Assembly: GCA_963810535.1 (NCBI GenBank)
Contig: CAWENW010000009.1
Coordinates: 16,363 to 80,362, forward strand
Source: an uncultured Chloroflexia bacterium
Lineage (GTDB): Bacteria > Chloroflexota > Ktedonobacteria > Ktedonobacterales > JADMIN01
DNA length: 64,000 nucleotides
Direction of reading: 5' to 3'
Below, piece by piece: positions 11,706-38,833 of the stretch (position 1 is the stretch's first letter; the number at the start of each line of letters is the position of its first letter). Under the pieces are notes generated by a model. It had not been told where the DNA came from, searched no databases, and saw only the letters and a list, made by a program, of their open reading frames with translations. The position numbers and the translations under genes were made by a program.

Positions 11706-12254
<549 letters not shown>

Positions 12255-27322: not shown

Positions 27323-28544
27323 TTGGAACACCTACCTAGTGGTAGAAATGACATGGGGGCGGTTCTCGTGCTGGAAGACGGCCGGTGCTTTCACGGCCGG
27401 CCCTTTGGCGCGGTGGAGGCCCTCGCATCCGGGCGTAAGGGCGAAGTAGTATTCGCTACCAGTATGACCGGCTACCAGGAAATCTGTACCGATCCCTCCT
27501 ACCGCGGCCAGATGGTGGTGATGACCTACCCCCTCATCGGAAATTACGGCGTCGCTCCCGACGATGCAGAGTCGCGCCGGCCCTGGCTCTCCGCCCTGAT
27601 AGTCCGAGAGTATACTGATGAGTACAGCAACTGGCGCGCCGCCGAGTCGCTCGACGCCTATCTCCACCGCTTCGGTATACCTGGCTTGGCCGACCTGGAT
27701 ACTCGTGCCCTAACCCGTCACCTGCGCGCCCATGGAACCTTGCGCGGAATCATCATGGGCTATTCAGGCAGTAACCAGCCCGACATCACCAACGCTCCAA
27801 GCCGCCGCCCGTGAAGTGCGGACCGTGACCGAGCTGGACGTCGTCGACGAGGTAGCCGAGCATCCGGGCGGCGAGGTGAGAACCTGGATTGGATCAACGC
27901 CGCCCGATGCGCCAAGCGTCCTGCTCATCGATACCGGCTATAAAGAAAATATCGCCCGGTGTCTCCTCGAGCGGGGGATACGCGTCATGATCGCGCCGTA
28001 CACCATCGACCTGGACCAGATACGACGGCTATCGCCCGACGGCATCGTGCTCGCCAATGGACCGGGCGATCCGGAGAGTCTCTCCCAGCTCACCCGCGTC
28101 GTCGGCGCTCTCATTCGGGAGCCGCATCCCATTCCTCTCTTCGGCATCTGTCTGGGTCACCAGATCATCGGACTGGCCGCCGGAGCCCAGACCAGCCGGC
28201 TGCCGTTTGGCCATCATGGGGGGAATCATCCGGTACGTGAGCAGCGCACCGGCAGAGTCACCATTACCTCACAGAACCATAACTTCCAGGTAGATGCCGC
28301 CTCCCTACCGGTAGAGAGCGGGTTTTATGTCAGCCATACCAATCTCTCAGATGGAAGCGTCGAAGGGCTGGCGCATAAACAGCTACCCATTTTTTCGGTA
28401 CAGTACCATCCAGAGGCCGCACCCGGTCCCGAGGATAACCGGCTGCTCTTCGATCGTTTCGCCGGCCTGATACGGGCCCAACCGACCGCGACTTCACCGG
28501 ACTCGCCACATCAGGAGGAGATGCCAAGCCGTGCCGCTACGTAA
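27323..28544 (+). pseudogene. carA: carbamoyl-phosphate synthase small subunit, frame break near 27780-27815
   Basis: The N-terminal CPSase small-chain part (VLVLEDG..TGYQEICTDPSYRGQ..TYPLIGNYG) runs in the frame ending at 27814. The GATase part (GICLGHQ..VQYHPEA) is in the +1 frame from about 27790. Both are collinear with CarA. Confidence 0.8.
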
Positions 28545-31500
28545 GGACGTCAATTCGGTGCTGGTCATAGGATCAGGACCGATCATCATAGGGCAGGCCG
28601 CCGAGTTCGATTACGCCGGCACACAGGCCTGTAAAGCGCTTCGCGAAGAAGGCCGGCGCGTCATCCTGGTCAACTCCAATCCCGCGACCATTATGACCGA
28701 TGAGGGAATCGCCGACGCGACCTACATCGAGCCGCTTACCGTTCCGGTGCTGGAGCGGATCATCGAGCGAGAGAGGCCCGACGGCCTGCTGGCTACGCTC
28801 GGGGGGCAGACCGGTCTCAACCTGGCGGTCGAGCTGTCGCAGGCGGGGGTACTGGAGCGGTACAACGTCAAGCTGCTGGGCACCTCGCTCTCAACCATAC
28901 TCCGCGCCGAGGACCGCGAGCTCTTTAAGCAGCTACTGCTCGACCTGGGCATCGAAGTACCACCCAGCCGGACGGTCACCACCCTGGAGGGTGCCCTCGA
29001 CTTTGCCGGGACCATTGGTCTGCCGGTCGTCATCCGTCCCGCCTTTACGCTGGGAGGGACCGGGGGCGGCGTGGCGAGAACCCGCGCCGAGCTGGCCCGC
29101 ATCGCCGAATCGGGGCTCGCGGCCAGCCCCATAGGTCAGATACTGGTCGAGCAGTACCTGCGAGGATGGAAAGAGCTCGAGTACGAGGTGTTGCGGGATG
29201 CGGCGGATACCTGCATTACCGTCTGCAACATGGAGAACTTCGACCCTCTCGGCATTCATACCGGTGACAGTATTGTGGTGGCGCCCAGCCAGACTCTCTC
29301 CGACCGTGAGCACCAGATGCTGCGAAGCGCCTCACTTCGGATCATTCGCGCCCTGGGGGTCGAGGGCGGCTGCAACATCCAGTTCGCCCTCGATCCGCAT
29401 TCGCTCCAGTTTTATGTGATCGAAGTCAACCCCCGGGTCAGCCGGAGCTCGGCGCTGGCCTCGAAAGCGACCGGGTATCCCATAGCCCGGGTGGCCGCCA
29501 AGATCGCCCTGGGATTACAGCTCGACGAGATCAAGAATCAAATTACCGGCGTGACGGTAGCGGCCTTCGAGCCCGCGCTCGACTACTGCGTGGTGAAGAT
29601 ACCGCGCTGGCCGTTCGATAAGTTCCCTCAGGCGGATCGGCTGCTGGGAACGCAGATGAAGGCAACCGGCGAGGTCATGGCCATCGACCGTACCTTCGAG
29701 GCCGCGCTGCAGAAGGCCATGCGTTCCCTTGAGCTACGACCGCCTGGCGGAGACTCCAGCGGATGAGCCGGAGGCCGGCACCGAGCCTGCAGGCGGAGCC
29801 GCCACCGGAGCTTCCAGCGGTGCCGACAACGGTACCGGAGGCCACTGACCTCCGCCTCTGGCGACTGCTACAGGCGATACGGGGCGATACCTCCGATGCC
29901 CACCTCGCCGAGCTGGCGAGCCAGACCGGCATCGATCACTGGTTTCTTGCCAAGCTACGCAACATCGTGACCATGGAGCGGCGTCTCTGCGAGGAGCCGC
30001 TCTCGCGCGAGCTGCTACTCGCGGCCAAGCGTCTCGGCTTCGCCGATTTTCGGATTGAAGAGCTAAACTTAGGCGCGCCGCAAGTGCCGCCAAACCCCAG
30101 CTACGAGTCCGGCAGAACCCACGACGGCATGCGTATTCGTTTGCTGCGGCGGCGGTGGGGCATCCGCCCTACCTACAAGATGGTAGACACCTGCGCCGCC
30201 GAGTTTCCGGCGCTCACTCCATATTTCTACAGCACTTATGAGGAAGAGAATGAGGCCGAGCCGCTCGAGGGACCACGCGCGGTGGTACTGGGCTCAGGTC
30301 CAATCCGCATTGGGCAGGGCATCGAGTTCGATTACTGCTCGGTACGAGCGGCGCTTGAGCTGCAGAGTGCCGGGACGAAGAGCATCTTGATCAACTCCAA
30401 TCCGGAGACGGTCAGCACCGACTTTGATGTCTCCGACCGCCTCTACTTCGAGCCGCTTGATCTAGAAAGCGTCCTGAACGTCCTCGAGAATGAGGGGCGT
30501 GACGGCGAGCTTCCGCCAGTGATCACCCAGTTCGGCGGCCAGACCGCTATAGGGTTGGTCTCGGGTCTTTCCGCCTATGGGGTGACGCTTCTCGGTACCG
30601 GAGCCGAGAGTATCGACGCGGCTGAGGATCGCTATCGGTTTGACGCGCTCATGGAGGAGCTGGGAGTGCCGCGACCGCGGGGAGCCGCGATCACAAGCGT
30701 CGAAGCCGCGCTCGAGACCGCGTCTGACATTGGCTATCCGGTGCTGGTGCGGCCCTCGTATGTGCTCGGGGGCCGCGGCATGGAAATCGTGCGTAGCGAG
30801 GCTGAGCTGCAACGGTATATGGCGCAGACGGTAGCCGAGTTTGGCGAGCATCCCATCCTTATCGACCGATACCTGAGCGGTCGTGAGGTCGAGGTCGACG
30901 CCCTGGGCGACGGCGCCGACGTGCTGATACCGGGAATCATGGAGCACATCGAACGGGCCGGCGTTCACTCCGGCGATAGCTTCGCCGTCTATCCGTCGCA
31001 GCAATCTCACCCAGGATGAGATCGAGACTATCGCCGGGTATACGCGGCGGATAGCCCTGGCCCTGGGAGTACGGGGGCTGGTCAACGCGCAGTTTGTCGT
31101 GACTGCCGAAGGCGCCTTCGGTGGTCACGACAGTTCGGACGGCCATGTCTACGTCCTGGAGGTTAACCCGCGGGCATCTCGAACGGTACCGTTCCTCTCC
31201 AAGGTTACCGGCGTCCCAATGGTGGCGTTGGCGACCCGTATCGCTCTGGGTGAGTCGCTGGCGCAGCTGGGCTACGGCGGGTTGCCAAATGGTCTCTGGC
31301 CGGAGCCGCCGCTGGTGGCGGTGAAGGGTCCAGTCTTTTCTATGGCCAAGATTACTGGCGGTGAAATGGCGCTCAGCCCTGAAATGAAAAGCACCGGCGA
31401 GGTGCTGGGAGTAGACCGGTCGTACTCCGCCTCGCTCACCAAGGCGCTGCTAGCGGCTCACATCGAGATTCCCGTTCAGGACGGTGTCGCCTTCGTCTCG

Positions 31501-31900
31501 CTGGCCGACCGAGATAAGCCAGAGTCTCTGCCGATTCTGCGCCGGCTGTCACGAAGCCGGCTACTCCTTCTACGCCACGCCGGGCACGGCGGCGTACCTG
31601 GCCGCCGACGGCATTCCCTCCGCCCCGGTGAGCCGTATTCGCAGCGGCGACGATACGATTCTGCAGCTCATACGGGAGCATCGGGTACAGCTGGTGCTGA
31701 ACACGCTGACCGGGGGCGGCGGCCGACTGCGGGAGGGAAGCGAGATGCGCGACGGATTCGAGATTCGCCGCAGCGCAGTTGAGAGCGGCGTGCCTTGCCT
31801 GACGTCACTGGATACCGCGCGGGCGGTGGTAGAGGCACGCTTCGGCGCCAGTGGCTACAGCGTCCTGCCGCTGATTGAGTACCGAGATGGCGTCCGGTCG
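28531..31900 (+). pseudogene. carB: carbamoyl-phosphate synthase large subunit, pieces in four frame segments
   Basis: CarB-collinear segments: 28531-29766 ([21 protein letters not shown]...), 29763-31019 (second ATP-grasp half), about 31001-31550 (LEVNPRASRTVPF...) and about 31550-31890 (MGS-like HEAGYSFYATPGTA...). Frame changes at about 29760, 31005 and 31550. There is no in-frame stop near the expected C-terminus, so the 3' end is approximate. Confidence 0.8.
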
Positions 31901-31932: not shown

Positions 31933-32645
31933 CTACTTGCCTCGCCGTATGAGGAAGAGCGTTACCCCCTCAACCAGCAGCGCGACCACTATAGCGCTTA
32001 TGAATGCTCCCGCTATAGACATACGGCCAAGCAGCAGCGAGAGCGAGAGAAAAAAACCCGCGAAAGCGAACTGCCCCAAGAGGAGGCCACGCAGCACGCG
32101 AGCGGCATCGTGTGGGCCCTGCTGCTGGTGGGCGAAGATAACCAGTATCGAGGCATACAGAGGGAAAGGGGCCAGGAGGCCCGCCAGCTGCGGACCCAGC
32201 GCCGGGGCCAGACCGGTGAGTAGCAGCACGAAGATGGCGGCGATGACCATGCGAGCCGGTAAATCCCAGGCCGGCGCTCCGCCAGCCTTCCCCCGCCGCG
32301 GCAGCGTCTGCTCTTCCCCGTAGGCCGGCTCGCTCTCCGCCGCCATGGGCCGCATCCAGACGAATGCGCACGAGAGGACGGTGACCGCGACCAGAAAGAG
32401 GGGTAGCGGCGGTACGCTATGCAGGTGTGAGAAGACGAGGTTGAGGAGTAGGGTCGAGATCAGGAATCCGGCGACCGCTACCGGGGCTGCCCGCCACCAT
32501 TTCCAGCGGAATGCCGCCCATCCATAGACGAGCGCGAAAGCCGCATCGGAGATAGCCCCGGCCAGCGTGCCGGTCGCGGCCGCGGCGGCGAAGGCGGCGC
32601 CATGATCCAGGGCGAGGAAGAAGATGACGGGTCCGGAGGTGAAGG
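31933..32645 (-). pseudogene. integral membrane protein gene, C-terminal part (interrupted by the TnpB element)
   Basis: The minus-strand frame reads FTSGPVIFFLALDHGAAFAAAAATG...LVEGVTLFLIRRGK from 32643 down to the stop at 31933. It continues the N-terminal fragment at 34072-34174 in frame if 32646-34071 is removed. Confidence 0.7.
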
Positions 32646-32667
32646 GTTATGAATAGTTGCAGAGAAT

Positions 32668-32717
32668 GTACCCATATGTACCCATGTGTACCCATGTGTC
32701 TCCTTGTGTTCTCCTTG
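32668..32717 (+). repeat. five tandem 10-nt units in the element's left end (GTACCCATAT/GTACCCATGT/GTACCCATGT/GTCTCCTTGT/GTTCTCCTTG)
   Basis: Read directly. Copy 2 has four units at the equivalent place (about 37433-37472). Confidence 0.8.
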
Positions 32718-32813
32718 ACCGCAGCAGCAGAACATGATACACGTGTTCTAGCAATCGAGGAGTGAAGGCCTCCCTTTCGACAGGATGGCGGGGGAGGGTC
32801 GGAGAGATACGGG

Positions 32814-34055
32814 ATGCTGGTACAGCGAGCATACAAAACGGAGCTGGACCTCAACAATCGGCAGGTGACGGCCTGCCGCCAGCATGCTGGCGCCGCACGG
32901 TGGGCCTACAACTGGGGACTCCGGATCAAGCAGGAACGCTCTACCGCGAGCAAGAGGAGTCCCACTGCCATCGACCTGCACCGCGAGCTCAATGCCCTGA
33001 AAAAGACAGACGTGCCCTGGATGTATCGGGTCTCCAAGTGTGCGCCGCAGGAAGCCCTCTGGAACCTGGATGCCGCCTTCCAGCAGTTCTTTCGCCGGTG
33101 TGCCCTCAAGAAACAGGGCAGGTGGACCGGGAAGCTCGGGTATCCCCGTTTCAAGACCAAGAAGAAAGGACTGGGCAGCTTTCGGCTCACCGGCTCCATC
33201 GTGGTGTCGGAGAAAGCGATTGTGCTGCCCCGATTGGGTCGACTGCGGCTCAAAGAGCGCGAGTACCTGCCGACCTCAGGGGTAAAGATCCTCTCAGCCA
33301 CAGTGAGCGAGCAGGCTGGGCGCTGGTATGTGAGTGTCCAGGTGGAAGAGGAGCTGGCGGTACCCGAGAATACCGGGCCGGTCGTGGGGATCGATCTGGG
33401 GATCAAGAGTCTGGCGACCCTCTCCGATGGAACGGTGATCCCCAATCCGCGCCACCTGAAACGGCGTCTGAAGAAGCTCAAGCGGTTACAGCGAGTGGTG
33501 AGCCGGCGGAAGAAAGGCGGCAAGAACCGCAAGAAGGCGGTGCGCAAGCTCGCCACGCTGCATCGGCAGATCACGAACCAACGACGCAATACGCTGCATC
33601 AGGTCACGACCAGGCTGGCGAAAACCAAGTCGGTGCTGGTCATCGAAGATCTGAACGTCAGCGGGATGCTCAAGAACCACCATCTGGCGCAAGCCATTGG
33701 TGATGTGGGCTGGTATGAGTTCAAGCGGCAGCTGCTCTATAAAGCTAGCTGGTATGGGTCGCGAGTGATCCTGGCGGATCGGTGGGAGCCCTCCAGCAAG
33801 CGGTGTAGCGGCTGCGGGTGGGTCGACGAGGATCTGACGCTCTCAGATCGGGTCTATCACTGTGAGCAGTGTGGGCTGGTGCTGGATCGGGATCTGAATG
33901 CCGCGATCAATCTGATGCAACTGGCCGGGAGTTCCTCGGACAGTCACAACGCCTGTGGAGCTGTCAGCTCTGGCGCGAGGTCTCGGCGTCGCGTGAAACT
34001 GACGGCCGTGAAGCAGGAACCTAACGCCAAGGGTGGCTTGTCCATACTTGGGTAG
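32814..34055 (+). CDS. tnpB: TnpB, OMEGA RNA-guided RuvC endonuclease (intact)
   Basis: N-terminus MLVQRAYKTELDLNNRQ (OrfB_IS605 type), RuvC-I VVGIDLGIKSLATLSDG, RuvC-II VLVIEDLNVSGM, zinc ribbon CSGCG..CEQCG, Ruv[14 protein letters not shown]. Confidence 0.9.
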   Translation: MLVQRAYKTELDLNNRQVTACRQHAGAARWAYNWGLRIKQERSTASKRSPTAIDLHRELNALKKTDVPWMYRVSKCAPQEALWNLDAAFQQFFRRCALKKQGRWTGKLGYPRFKTKKKGLGSFRLTGSIVVSEKAIVLPRLGRLRLKEREYLPTSGVKILSATVSEQAGRWYVSVQVEEELAVPENTGPVVGIDLGIKSLATLSDGTVIPNPRHLKRRLKKLKRLQRVVSRRKKGGKNRKKAVRKLATLHRQITNQRRNTLHQVTTRLAKTKSVLVIEDLNVSGMLKNHHLAQAIGDVGWYEFKRQLLYKASWYGSRVILADRWEPSSKRCSGCGWVDEDLTLSDRVYHCEQCGLVLDRDLNAAINLMQLAGSSSDSHNACGAVSSGARSRRRVKLTAVKQEPNAKGGLSILG

Positions 34056-34087
34056 GTTTTGGAGAACGGTAGTCCAATCAGCCAGCC
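33900..34087 (+). ncRNA. candidate TnpB omegaRNA/reRNA: scaffold over the tnpB 3' end plus right end, guide = first about 16 nt of flank
   Basis: By analogy with characterised TnpB elements. The 3' 170 nt are the best-conserved part between the copies, and the hairpin at 33974-33993 shows a compensatory G:C to A:T change. The 5' limit is a guess. Confidence 0.45.
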
Positions 34088-34174
34088 GCTTACGGTCGGT
34101 CCCCAGCGTCTCCCGACCAGACTTGCCAGGCCGATTAGAGCTGGCGCCAGGAATATGCGGAGCGGAAGGCTCAT
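34072..34174 (-). pseudogene. integral membrane protein gene, N-terminal part (interrupted by the TnpB element)
   Basis: ATG at 34174 gives MSLPLRIFLAPALIGLASLVGRRWGPTVSGWLIG, then runs into the element's right end. Confidence 0.7.
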
Positions 34175-34558
34175 GGTTTTCGGCAGTCTCTTTGCGCTCC
34201 CGTGGATTAGCGTATCCAGTGATTGGCGTATCCAGCCGGAGAAATCAACCGCCCTGCCCAAGATACCTCGAGCAGGGCATTACCAGCAGGTGATGTAGGC
34301 GAGTGGATCGGCGTATTCGGCTTAGACCGTGACCTTCATCTTCTCGAAGTTAGATCCACTTACTGAGATCTTCGCCTCCGCAGACGTGATTGGCGCCCCC
34401 TAGACTATACCACTTCCTTGCAGGAGCCTCTGGCCATGTGGCTGGGGTCCCTCTTGTCGCTGCCGGTGCTTTCCACATTGAAGAATCGCCTTGGACGGAG
34501 GAACAAATCATGAAGATAAAGGCAAGAAATAGTCTCACTCCTATAGCTTGGTTAAGGA

Positions 34559-36060: not shown

Positions 36061-37161
36061 TCAGGAGGACCGTACCGAAAGTGTAGCCATCTTCTCAATG
36101 ATGGCATCGGCGACCTGAGAGGTGCCTACCGCGGTTGGATCATCGGGCCGCGGCTTGAGATCATAGGTGACGTTCTTGCCCTCGGCTATCACCGCCGCCA
36201 GAGCGCCCTCCAGGCGATTCGCCGCTTCGCGCTCTTTCAGGTAGCGCAGCATCAGCACTCCTGAGAACATCATGGCCATGGGGTTCACTTTGTTCTGGCC
36301 CGCGTACTTGGGGGCGCTGCCGTGCACCGGTTCGAAGACAGCGCAGTCGGTGCCGATATTCGCCCCAGGGGCGACTCCCAGTCCACCGATGAGACCGGCG
36401 GAGAGATCGGAGAGAATATCGCCGTAGAGGTTGGGCAGCACCAGCACATCGTAGAGCTCGGGCTTCTGGACCAGCTGCATGCACATGTTGTCGACGATGC
36501 GATCCTCGAACTGAATGTCGGGATATTCCTTGCTCACTTCTTGCGCTACCGAGAGAAACAGGCCATCGGAGAACTTCATGATGTTGGCCTTGTGCACCGC
36601 GGTCACCTTATGTCGCCCATTGTCGCGCGCGTAGTCGAAGGCGAACTTGACGATTCGGCGGCTGGCGCCCACAGAGATGTACTTGATGCTGATGGCGGCG
36701 TCGCGGCTCAGATTTTGCTTGGTCGTTCTTCCGATGAAATCAAGCAGCTCTTCCAGCTCAGGCGTGCCGCGTTGATACTCGATGCCGGCGTAGAGGTCTT
36801 CGGTGTTCTCGCGGCAGATGATGAGGTCGATGTTCTCATAGCGGGAGCGGAGGCCAGGAAACGACTTGGCGGGTCGAAGGTTCGCGTAGAGGTCAAGGCT
36901 CTTGCGCAGTGCTACGTTGGCGCTGCGAAATCCTTTGCCTACCGGAGTGGTAATCGGTCCTTTGAGACCGACCTTGGTCTGCCGTATAGACTCAATGACC
37001 TCATCTGGCAAGACGGTGCCGGTCTTCTCGAGCACGCTCAGGCCCGCCTGCAGCACGTGCCATCTGAATTGTACTCCCGTGGCCTCGAGCACGCGGCGAG
37101 TGGCTTCGGTGATCTCCGGTCCGGTACCATCGCCCGGGATCAACGTAACGTCGTAAGGCAT
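36061..37161 (-). CDS. icd: isocitrate dehydrogenase (isocitrate/isopropylmalate dehydrogenase family, about 366 aa)
   Basis: [44 protein letters not shown] at 37161 with GGAGGA upstream is preferred to the listed longer ORF. Confidence 0.85.
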
Positions 37162-37411
37162 TGTTCCTCCAGGTCCGTCTAGGGCCTCAACACGGGATAG
37201 ACGACCATTAAACCTTTCGGTCGGCCAACAGTGCAGCGTGACCGAAAAAATATGCTCCGGACGCTGCAGACCATGTGTGATTATAGCATAAACGTCACCC
37301 TCACCCCGGGTCACCCGGTCTCCTTCATGAGAGTGAACATGCATCTACCATCGACTCGTCTCGTGGTCGTCGGAGCCGGATATTCCGGGCAGAGTATTGC
37401 TGAGATACGGG

Positions 37412-38833
37412 GTTATGAATAGTTGCAGAGAATATACCCGTTTGTGCCCATGTGTATCCTTGTGTTCTCCTTGACCGTAGCAGCAGGGTATGATACATGT
37501 GTTCTAGCAATCGAAGAGTGAAGGCCTCGCTCTTCGACAGGACAGCTGGGGACTGGCAGGGAGATGCGGGATGCTGGTACAGCGGGCGTACAAAACGGAG
37601 CTGGATCTGAATGATCGGCAGATGACAGCCTGCCGCCAGCATGCCGGCGCCGCGCGCTGGGCCTACAACTGGGGACTCCGGATCAAGCAGGAGCGCTATG
37701 CGGCAAGCAAGAGGAGTCCCACCGCCATCGAGCTGCACCGCGAGCTCAACGGTCTTAAGAAGGCTGAGATTCCCTGGATGTATAGCGTCTCCAAATGTGC
37801 GCCGCAGGAAGCCTTGTGGAACCTGGATGCCGCCTTCCAGCAGTTCTTCCGCCGGTGTGCGCTCAAAAAGCAGGGCACGTGGACCGGAAAGCTCGGGTAT
37901 CCCCGCTTCAAGACCAAGAAGAAGGGGTTTGGGGAGTTTCCGGCTCACTGGGACGATTGTGGTGTCGGCTAAGTCGATCGTGCTGCCGCGCTTGGGGCGA
38001 CTGCGGCTCAAAGAGCGGGACTATCTGCCGACTGGTGGAGGGTGAAGATCCTCTCGGCCACGGTGAGTGAGCAGGCTGGGCACTGGTATGTGTCCGTGCA
38101 GGTGGAAGAGGAGCAGGCGGTACCCGAGAATACCGGATCCGTGGTCGGCATTGATCTGGGTGATCACGAGTCTGGCCACCCTCTCCGATGGAACGGTGAT
38201 CCCCAATCCGCGCCACCTCAAACGACGCATCAAGAAACTCAAGCGCCTCCAGCGGGTAGTAAGCCGGAGGAAGAAAGGCAGCAAGAACCGGAAGAAGGCT
38301 GTCCGTAAGCTCGCGAAGCTGCATCGGCAGATCAAGAACCAACGACGCAATACGCTGCATCAGGTGACGACCAGGCTGGCGAAAACCAAGTCCGTGCTGG
38401 TCATCGAAAACCTGAACGTCGGCGGGATGCTGAAGAACCATCATCTGGCGCAAGCGATCGGTGATGTGGGGTTGGTATGAGTTCAAGCGGCAGCTGCTCT
38501 ACAAAGCCAGCTGGTATGGGGCGCGAGTGATCCTGGCCGACCGGTGGGAGCCGTCCAGCAAGCGGTGTAGTGGCTGTGGGTGGGTCGATGCGGATCTGAC
38601 CCTCGCAGATCGGATCTTTCACTGCGAGCAGTGTGGGCTGGTGCGGGATCGAGATCTGAATGCGGCGATCAATCTGATGCAACTGGCCGGGAGTTCCTCG
38701 GACAGTGTAAACGCCTGTGGAGCTGTCAGCGCTGGCACGAGGCGCAAACCTCGTGTGAAACCGGCGGCCGTGAAGCAGGAACCTAACGCTGAGCATGGCC
38801 TGTCCATACTTGGGTAAGTTTGGGAGAACGGTA
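37412..38833 (+). mobile_element. TnpB-only IS200/IS605-family element, copy 2 (degenerate)
   Basis: Collinear with copy 1 from GTTATGAATAG to GGAGAACGGTA, with many substitutions, one fewer 10-nt unit in the left end, and indels in tnpB. Confidence 0.85.
37571..38817 (+). pseudogene. tnpB: tnpB pseudogene (four frame changes)
   Basis: TnpB-collinear pieces in ORFs 37571.., 37641.., 38042.., 38067.. and 38461.. (frames 2,0,2,0,1). Indels relative to copy 1 at about 37935, 38040, 38168 and 38472. Confidence 0.85.

What the first reader, a model, noticed from the sequence alone, without database searches (positions are those of the whole stretch)
32646..34174. Intact TnpB (OMEGA) element caught interrupting a membrane-protein gene with a clean, reconstructable junction
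The minus-strand gene starts at 34174 (MSLPLRIFLAPALIGLASLVGRRWGPTVSGWLIG) and runs straight into the element's right end. Its continuation (..FTSGPVIFFLALDHGAAF... to the stop at 31933) resumes exactly at the left end. Removing 32646-34071 restores one frame (..WLIG-P-FTSG..); the alternative boundary 32644-34069 gives ..G-L-FTSG... There is no target duplication, as expected for IS200/IS605-type insertion. TnpB has all RuvC residues (D in GIDLG, E in VIEDL, D in [10 protein letters not shown]) and the zinc ribbon, so this copy looks functional and the insertion looks recent. The guide predicted by the TnpB model is the first about 16 nt of right flank, GTCCAATCAGCCAGCC (34072-34087).
Basis: partly seen in the sequence, partly recalled or inferred. 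Interest (0 to 1): 0.7.

Follow-up and report, generated by a model that had tools for sequence, protein, structure and literature searches.

The report
IS607-type TnpB element splitting a membrane gene

Summary
The core observation holds. An intact 413-aa TnpB gene (32814-34055, +) lies in an element that splits a minus-strand membrane-protein gene, and more than 1,600 full-length homologues span the break.

Three details need correcting.
- **Boundaries.** The insert is 32647-34069 (1423 bp), not 32646-34071 or 32644-34069. The right end stops at ...GGAGAACGG in 54 related loci. The left flank ends in GGG in about 30 loci. Removing 32647-34069 restores G-L-P-F, which all 18 aligned homologues have.
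- **Family.** This is IS607 (serine recombinase), not IS200/IS605. Relatives with the same kind of ends carry an IS607-type transposase directly upstream of tnpB, and a GG dinucleotide sits at both junctions. This copy has no transposase, so it is non-autonomous.
- **Guide and TAM.** The predicted guide starts at 34070 (TAGTCCAATCAGCCAG). The predicted TAM is (R)GGG, here AGGG at 32643-32646.

Supporting evidence:
- The RuvC triad (D194/E278/D360) and the zinc-finger cysteines are intact.
- dN/dS against nine intact copies is 0.11-0.18.
- A covariation-supported ωRNA scaffold lies at about 33925-34069.
- A second copy with a frameshifted tnpB sits at 37413-38831.

Verdict: a new member of a known kind, of low interest.

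The parts
31933..32646 (-). C-terminal part of the interrupted membrane-protein gene (codons 36-272 of the restored 272-aa protein, plus the stop at 31933-31935)
   Evidence: Translation; tblastn of the restored protein gives 100% identity over residues 36-272. Full-length homologues cover both halves.
32643..32646 (+). Target-derived TAM-like motif AGGG next to the left end; its last two bases (32645-32646) are the left GG core
   Evidence: The GGG encodes the conserved Pro of GLPF in uninterrupted alleles. In 30 related left flanks, -1 to -3 are G in 24-29 cases and -4 is always A or G. This matches the IS607 (G)GG target and TGGG TAM in the literature.
32647..34069 (+). Non-autonomous IS607-family element carrying tnpB only, 1423 bp
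   Evidence: Ends defined by copy B, 54 right ends and about 30 left ends in other genomes, and the empty-site allele L001.
32647..32813 (+). Left end. It holds direct repeats ATGTACCCAT x3.4 (32666-32699) and TGTGTTCTCCT x2.2 (32695-32717), and a family-conserved block TTGACC (32715-32720)...TGATACACG (32735-32743). The repeats may be transposase-binding sites and the block may be a promoter.
   Evidence: repeats; conservation; GTTCTCC occurs once in the left end on + and once at the right end on -. The promoter reading is inference; the consensus scan found no promoter.
32814..34055 (+). tnpB, 413 aa, intact; RuvC D194/E278/D360; zinc-finger cysteines C331, C334, C350, C353
   Evidence: Pfam and NCBIfam matches. 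Alignment to ISDra2 TnpB structures with E=2.8e-59. Motif positions. dN/dS 0.11-0.18 against nine intact copies.
33925..34069 (+). ωRNA scaffold overlapping the 3' end of tnpB and the right end. Helices at 33925-33939, 33960-34006 and 34020-34062. It ends ...GGAGAACGG, with the right GG core at 34068-34069.
   Evidence: RNAalifold on 38 loci gave 22 pairs, 19 of them with compensatory changes. 91.7% of cells are paired against 31-51% in slid controls, and 0 of 500 shuffles reach the observed values. Coordinates. The 5' limit is approximate.
34070..34085 (+). Predicted guide template and target sequence TAGTCCAATCAGCCAG (the first 16 nt of right flank)
   Evidence: Flanks diverge immediately after CGG in 54 loci. 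The 16-nt guide length is assumed from ISDra2-type TnpB and was not measured here.
34070..34174 (-). N-terminal 35 codons of the interrupted membrane-protein gene (MSLPL...WLIGL)
37413..38831 (+). Second copy of the element, about 87% identical, in an intergenic site. Its tnpB is broken by frameshifts but its ωRNA region is conserved. Left flank ...ACGGGG, right flank TATCGGCAATCC...

Best explanation
This is a non-autonomous (tnpB-only) insertion sequence of the IS607 family, in a Ktedonobacterales (Chloroflexota) genome.

Shown by sequence comparison:
- It is inserted, antisense, between codons 35 and 36 of a conserved polytopic membrane-protein gene of about 270 aa.
- The insertion sits at a GG dinucleotide within ...GAAGGG^TAG... 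and made no target duplication.
- tnpB is intact and under purifying selection.
- Its 3' end and the right end encode a conserved structured RNA that stops at ...ACGG, directly against variable flank.

Inferred from the characterised IS607 and IS605 systems:
- A serine transposase (TnpA_S) supplied in trans moves the element as a double-stranded circle, by crossover at the GG core.
- Read-through transcription from the element gives an ωRNA whose guide is the first 16 or so nt of right flank (TAGTCCAATCAGCCAG).
- TnpB with this ωRNA cuts the empty donor joint (AGGG + TAGTCC...) left after excision. The break is then repaired from a sister copy that still carries the element, so the element is retained.
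- The occupied site is spared because the right end reads ACGG, not RGGG, at TAM position -3.
For: **TnpB identity**
- Domain matches in Pfam and NCBIfam.
- The triad D194/E278/D360 aligns with ISDra2 D191/E278/D361 (ISDra2 residue numbers are from my own knowledge).

**Gene interruption**
- More than 1,600 homologues, most of the 120 listed covering 99-100% of the restored protein.
- GLPF at the break in 18 of 18 aligned homologues.
- The empty-site DNA allele L001.

**Ends**
- The right end stops at GGAGAACGG in 54 loci.
- The left flank reads (T/G)RGGG.

**IS607 membership**
- 14 of 48 more distant relatives carry an abutting serine recombinase ORF: 10 matched the catalytic-serine motif scan, 4 more were recognised by eye.
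- In L030 that ORF is 'IS607 family transposase' at 178.8 bits against a cutoff of 110 and a Pfam Resolvase match.
- These relatives share the GGG|TGATAA... and ...GAGAACGG| termini.
- Published work reports a GG core, no TSD, a (G)GG target, a TGGG TAM, an ωRNA ending UCGG and self-discrimination at position -3.
- The left end holds subterminal direct repeats.

**ωRNA**
- Strong covariation.
- In the last 50 codons dN is about equal to dS, as expected where the RNA constrains the sequence more than the protein does.
Against: - No transposase is present in this copy or elsewhere in the 64-kb window (regex). Mobility therefore depends on a trans source that was not observed.
- NCBIfam places the TnpB below the cutoffs of both the IS200-specific model (323 against 425 bits) and the IS607-specific model (308 against 350 bits). 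The family assignment rests on genomic association in relatives at 74% identity or less and on the junction chemistry.
- The single-sequence fold of the ωRNA region is not exceptional (z = -1.45).
- The consensus scan found no promoter.
- No Rfam family matched.
- No expression, RNA or cleavage data exist.
- The window shows frameshifts in carB. The assembly may therefore carry indel errors, which weakens fine claims about which copies are intact or broken.
Confidence: 0.85

Rival explanations
1. One reading: an IS200/IS605-type element, mobilised by a Y1 (HUH) TnpA through single-stranded peel-and-paste, inserted 3' of a short target motif.
For: - The TnpB scores slightly higher on the IS200_TnpB NCBIfam model than on the IS607 model (323 against 308 bits, both below cutoff).
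- The best solved-structure relative of natural origin is ISDra2 TnpB, an IS200/IS605 element.
- Lack of a TSD and a motif next to the left end are shared by both families.
Against: - None of the upstream-abutting same-strand ORFs of at least 90 aa printed for 48 relatives resembled a Y1 transposase when read by eye; no Y1-specific search was run.
- 14 of the 48 carry IS607-type serine recombinases with the same kind of termini.
- An identical GG at both junctions fits a 2-bp serine-recombinase crossover.
- The left end has short direct repeats rather than a dominant subterminal hairpin.
Confidence: 0.04
2. The interruption is an assembly artefact: a multi-copy repeat wrongly placed inside the gene of a metagenome-assembled genome.
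For: - The element is multi-copy: two copies in the window and dozens in a related MAG.
- carB nearby shows frameshifts that could be assembly errors.
Against: - Both junctions fall exactly at the family's canonical ends.
- The two gene halves are collinear, in the same orientation, and join in frame to give the universally conserved GLPF.
- The target has the family's GGG motif.
- A chimeric join would not reproduce all of this.
Confidence: 0.03
3. The TnpB is no longer a transposon nuclease. It would be a stranded or domesticated gene, for example a guide-RNA-directed regulator, and the element an immobile relic.
For: - There is no transposase in cis or in the window.
- Published work describes domesticated and catalytically rearranged TnpBs.
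Against: - The catalytic triad and zinc finger are canonical.
- The family is multi-copy, with different flanks at each copy.
- The host gene shows no decay, so the insertion is young.
- The guide region varies with the flank in the way mobile copies do.
Confidence: 0.05

Closest known systems
IS607-family elements with TnpB (H. pylori IS607, M. tuberculosis IS1535, Clostridium botulinum CboIStron)
   Same: - GG core dinucleotide at both junctions and at the target, with no TSD and no terminal inverted repeats.
- Short subterminal direct repeats.
- G-rich target and TAM: (G)GG or TGGG in the published elements, (T/G)RGGG here.
- The ωRNA scaffold and right end finish in ...CGG, so position -3 separates the occupied site from the empty one.
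- Autonomous relatives have tnpA_S directly upstream of tnpB.
   Different: - This copy, and nearly all close copies at 81-89% identity, lack tnpA_S.
- Rfam detected no group I intron, so it is not an IStron.
- Position -4 of the flank is A or G rather than T.
- The lineage is Ktedonobacterales.
ISDra2 TnpB-ωRNA (IS200/IS605, Deinococcus radiodurans; PDB 8EXA, 8BF8, 8H1J)
   Same: - About 400-aa TnpB with the same domain order.
- An aligned D-E-D triad and zinc finger (E=2.8e-59).
- The ωRNA is encoded over the 3' end of tnpB and the right end, and the guide comes from the right flank.
   Different: ISDra2 moves by a Y1 TnpA through ssDNA hairpins and uses a TTGAT TAM. Here the family partner is a serine recombinase, with a GG crossover and a GGG-type motif.
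IS1341-type / nonautonomous OMEGA elements (tnpB-only)
   Same: tnpB is the only gene and the element is multi-copy. Published work describes this as the commonest state of OMEGA transposons.
   Different: IS1341 is conventionally grouped under IS200/IS605. This element's ends and autonomous relatives are IS607-type.

Membership tests
TnpB (OMEGA RNA-guided nuclease) | Domain architecture: HTH/WED, RuvC (OrfB_IS605) and a zinc-ribbon TNB domain | tested here: met
   Pfam PF12323, PF01385 and PF07282 all score above their cutoffs. NCBIfam guided_TnpB NF040570 scores 320 bits against a cutoff of 100.
TnpB (OMEGA RNA-guided nuclease) | Canonical RuvC D-E-D triad and CxxC...CxxC zinc finger | tested here: met
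   D194, E278 and D360 align with the ISDra2 catalytic positions. Cysteines at C331/C334 and C350/C353.
TnpB (OMEGA RNA-guided nuclease) | A conserved structured RNA (ωRNA) over the 3' end of the ORF and the right end, abutting variable flank | tested here: met
   22 pairs, 19 with compensatory changes. 91.7% of cells paired against 31-51% in slid controls. Flanks diverge right after CGG.
TnpB (OMEGA RNA-guided nuclease) | RNA-guided, TAM-dependent DNA cleavage | not testable with these tools
   This needs a plasmid-interference or TAM-library assay.
IS607 family | Serine-recombinase transposase (MerR-like HTH plus resolvase catalytic domain) encoded upstream of tnpB | tested here: not met
   It is absent from this copy and from the window. 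It is present in 14 of 48 relatives with homologous termini; NF033518 scores 178.8 bits against a cutoff of 110. This copy is therefore a non-autonomous derivative, not a complete IS607.
IS607 family | Identical GG dinucleotide at both element-flank junctions and at the target, with no TSD | tested here: met
   Left junction G-GG|TTATG, right junction AAC-GG|TAG. The empty allele reads GAAGGG|CAGTCC.
IS607 family | No terminal inverted repeats; short subterminal direct repeats | tested here: met
   10-11-nt direct repeats at 32666-32717. Between the two ends only short motifs are shared in inverted orientation. Whether TnpA_S binds these repeats was not tested.
IS200/IS605 family | Y1 (HUH) TnpA associated with the element or with close relatives | tested here: not met
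   No Y1-like ORF was evident among the upstream ORFs printed for the 48 relatives; where a transposase is present it is a serine recombinase. Only same-strand abutting ORFs of at least 90 aa were examined, by eye and without a Y1 model, so the test is not exhaustive.
IS200/IS605 family | Subterminal imperfect hairpins at both ends that TnpA_Y recognises on ssDNA | tested here: inconclusive
   The left end has only one 9-nt inverted repeat (32707-32734). Hairpins in the right end are explained by the ωRNA.
IStron (IS607/IS605 with a group I intron) | A group I intron within the element | tested here: not met
   Rfam found nothing at E<=1 across 32400-34400.

The most novel reading that the evidence does not exclude
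This tnpB-only lineage has reached dozens of copies in Ktedonobacterales genomes: about 35 loci in one MAG, with several different left-end subtypes but one conserved right end and ωRNA. No cognate serine transposase was seen next to any close copy. If these genomes truly have no TnpA_S, the spread would need a transposase-independent route. One candidate is copying driven by TnpB-ωRNA cleavage at TAM-bearing sites that resemble the guide. A milder version is that ωRNAs from decayed copies, such as copy B, are loaded in trans by TnpB from intact copies.
Probability: 0.05. Interest if true: 0.7.

Novelty: new member of a known kind. Interest (0 to 1): 0.2.

Why it matters
- It is a clean natural example of an IS607-type OMEGA element caught inside a gene. 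The occupied site, the inferred empty site, the TAM and the guide can all be read from sequence.
- It gives an untested TnpB/ωRNA pair with a predicted G-rich (R)GGG TAM, from a lineage (Ktedonobacterales) known for OMEGA expansions.
- It adds no new mechanism. The main value of this check is the corrected family, boundaries, TAM and guide.

Tried and rejected
- **Rfam.** A scan of 32400-34400 at E<=1 found nothing: no ωRNA family and no group I intron.
- **Metagenome scans.** Two scans for the empty site, one exact and one wobble-degenerate, returned 0 hits. Even the L001 allele is not in that collection. The uninterrupted allele is therefore known only from a relative at 85% aa identity and from protein homologues.
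- **Promoter scan.** The sigma-70 consensus scan found no promoter in the element. The conserved TTGACC-17-TACAC(G/T) block is only a visual inference.
- **Single-sequence RNA fold.** Folding the ωRNA region alone was not significant (z = -1.45). Only covariation supports the structure.
- **Membrane protein name.** Pfam and NCBIfam gave no family for the membrane protein. The name 'GlpM family' that JGI gives to a few homologues is not supported.
- **Paralogue search.** tblastn found no second copy of the membrane gene in the window.
Both (G-P-F and G-L-F) were rejected, because each drops a residue that all 18 homologues keep.
- **Right end at 34071.** Copies A and B both continue with TA after CGG, which suggested an end at 34071. 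This was rejected because 54 loci diverge right after CGG.

Full report
**1. What is in the sequence**

The plus strand carries a 413-aa ORF at 32814-34055. It matches HTH_OrfB_IS605, OrfB_IS605 and the Cas12f1-like TNB zinc-ribbon domain, all above Pfam's cutoffs, and NCBIfam's RNA-guided TnpB family at 320 bits against a cutoff of 100.

On the minus strand an ORF starts at 34174 and reads MSLPLRIFLAPALIGLASLVGRRWGPTVSGWLIG. It then runs on into element sequence. A second minus-strand frame begins right after a TAA at 32647-32649 with PFTSGPVIFFLALDHGAAF... and ends at the stop at 31933.

**2. The two halves are one gene**

The restored protein finds more than 1,600 homologues, most of the 120 listed being 257-285 aa long and covering 99-100% of the query. 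They come mostly from Ktedonobacterales and other Chloroflexota.

A simple hydropathy scan shows about eight hydrophobic segments, so "membrane protein" is fair. Neither Pfam nor NCBIfam names the family.

One deviation is a V to I change. Intact family members deviate at 0-4 such columns when left out in turn. The gene therefore shows no decay, which fits a young insertion.

**3.

- All 18 aligned homologues read G-L-P-F-T-S-G across the break, with both Leu and Pro.
- The closest uninterrupted allele is L001 (P0001, 85% aa identity, from a JGI metagenome). It reads ...GGA CTG|CCC TTC ACT....
- The window reads ...GGA CTA|CCG TTC TCC AAA... on the N-terminal side, where the element begins. 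It reads ...CAT AA|CCC TTC ACC... on the C-terminal side.
- The insert is therefore 32647-34069 (1423 bp). On the plus strand the empty site is ...GGAGGTGAAGGG^TAGTCCAATCAGCC...

Two independent lines agree with this.

- A second copy of the element lies at 37413-38831, about 87% identical.
- A genome-collection search with the TnpB gave 80 related loci, about 35 of them in a single Ktedonobacterales MAG. In 54 loci the right end stops at ...GGAGAACGG and the flanks diverge immediately after it. In 30 left ends the flank ends in GGG, position -4 is always A or G, and position -5 is mostly T or G.

The "TA" that copies A and B share after CGG is flank, not element.

**4. The family is IS607, not IS200/IS605**

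The close copies (81-89% identity) are all tnpB-only. More distant relatives are different.

- L020 (74%), L030 (71%) and L026 (69%), among others, carry an ORF of about 195 aa directly upstream of tnpB on the same strand. It has an N-terminal HTH and the ...ALYARVSSADQK... serine-recombinase motif.
- In L030 this ORF matches NCBIfam "IS607 family transposase" at 178.8 bits against a cutoff of 110, and Pfam Resolvase.
- 14 of 48 relatives examined have such an abutting ORF, intact or degraded: 10 matched the catalytic-serine motif scan and 4 more were recognised by eye. None of the printed upstream ORFs looked like a Y1 transposase, though no Y1-specific search was run.
- These autonomous elements share the right terminus ...TTCTGGAGAACGG| and the left boundary GGG|TGATAA....

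The junctions here fit what is published for IS607.

- They read G-GG|TTATG on the left and AAC-GG|TAG on the right.
- IS607 inserts at a GG dinucleotide without duplication. It has GG at its termini, which fits a 2-bp serine-recombinase crossover. It prefers (G)GG targets and has short subterminal direct repeats (PMC6188088).
- For the C. botulinum IS607-type element, both the TnpA_S target and the TnpB TAM are 5'-TGGG. The ωRNA scaffold ends ...UCGG. The TCGG of the right end avoids self-cleavage through discrimination at position -3 (bioRxiv 10.1101/2023.11.20.567912).
- The window element has the same layout: AGGG on the left...ACGG at the right end, and direct repeats ATGTACCCAT x3.4 and TGTGTTCTCCT x2.2 in the left end.
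- GTTCTCC occurs exactly twice in the element, once in the left end (+) and once at the right terminus (-). The same holds in copy B. Binding of these motifs by the transposase is inference.

**5. TnpB and ωRNA**

- The protein aligns with the ISDra2 TnpB structures at E=2.8e-59. D194, E278 and D360 fall on the catalytic triad, and the CxxC pairs are at 331-334 and 350-353.
- Against nine intact copies from other genomes, dN/dS is 0.11-0.18. It is 0.08-0.14 over the first ~360 codons. In the last 50 codons dN is about equal to dS. That is the expected pattern where an RNA, more than the protein, constrains the sequence.
- An RNAalifold consensus of the last 190 nt from 38 loci gives 22 pairs, 19 of them with compensatory changes.
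- 91.7% of cells are paired, against 31-51% when the partners are slid. No shuffle in 500 reaches the observed values.
- In window coordinates the helices are 33925-33939, 33960-34006 and 34020-34062.
- The single-sequence fold is unremarkable (z = -1.45) and Rfam has no match, including no group I intron.
- The predicted guide template is the flank from 34070, TAGTCCAATCAGCCAG.

**6. Mechanism**

Shown by sequence: the insertion site, the ends, the GG cores, intact tnpB under purifying selection, and a conserved structured 3' RNA.

Inferred from characterised relatives:
- The element moves through a TnpA_S supplied in trans and a circular dsDNA intermediate.
- Read-through produces the ωRNA.
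- TnpB-ωRNA cuts the AGGG+TAGTCC... donor joint after excision.
- Recombination from a sister copy then restores the element.

No transposase is present in the window, so this copy is non-autonomous. Published work describes tnpB-only elements as the commonest state of OMEGA transposons (PMC10691335).

**7. Caveats**

- carB (28531-31782) is split by at least one frameshift near 31000, and possibly another at about 29766. It is either a pseudogene or the assembly carries indel errors.
- Assembly errors would weaken the claim that tnpB in copy B is truly broken. One of its four indels is a G-run length change.
- Two metagenome scans for an empty site from the same species found nothing.
- The promoter-like block in the left end was not picked up by the consensus scan.

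**8. Verdict**

This is a real and well-preserved IS607-family tnpB-only element inserted in a conserved membrane-protein gene. The junction is off by one codon, the guide start by two bases, and the family assignment needs correcting. It is a new member of a known kind and of low general interest.

Noticed in passing
window 37413-38831: A second copy of the same element (about 87% identical, same strand) lies in an intergenic site upstream of an isocitrate/isopropylmalate-dehydrogenase-like gene (36061-37344, minus strand). Its tnpB is split into four ORFs by indels, but its ωRNA region and ends are conserved. Its left end has one fewer 10-nt repeat than copy A.
   Followed up: partly
window 28531-31782: The carbamoyl-phosphate synthase large-subunit gene (carB) is split into three ORFs. 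There is a clear frameshift near 31000 (...AVYPSQ / NLTQDEIETI...) and a possible one at about 29766. This is either a pseudogene or indel errors in the assembly.
   Followed up: partly
window 12031-12174: A tandem array of a 9-nt unit (GTCGTCGCT, about 11 overlapping copies), probably a coding low-complexity repeat.
   Followed up: no
window 34250-34279 (minus strand): A strong terminator-like hairpin (13 pairs, then a T-rich tail) lies about 75 nt upstream of the start codon of the interrupted membrane gene.
   Followed up: no
L041 3817-6198: A related copy in MAG CAWGVQ01 has an insertion of about 2.4 kb inside its tnpB, apparently a nested insertion.
   Followed up: no
L002-L066 (left ends, about 160 nt upstream of tnpB): Close copies share one conserved right end and ωRNA, but fall into at least five left-end subtypes over the first 60 or so nt (TTATGAATAG..., TAATACTTCAG..., TTGATAACTAG..., TTATAATT..., TTACAATTTC...). 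All are preceded by GGG.
   Followed up: partly
L050, L062, L063 (Promethearchaeota / Thorarchaeota MAGs): TnpB relatives at 53-58% identity occur in Asgard-archaeal MAGs. L050 and L062 have the same ...GG(A/G)GAACGG right terminus; no right end was identified in L063.
   Followed up: no
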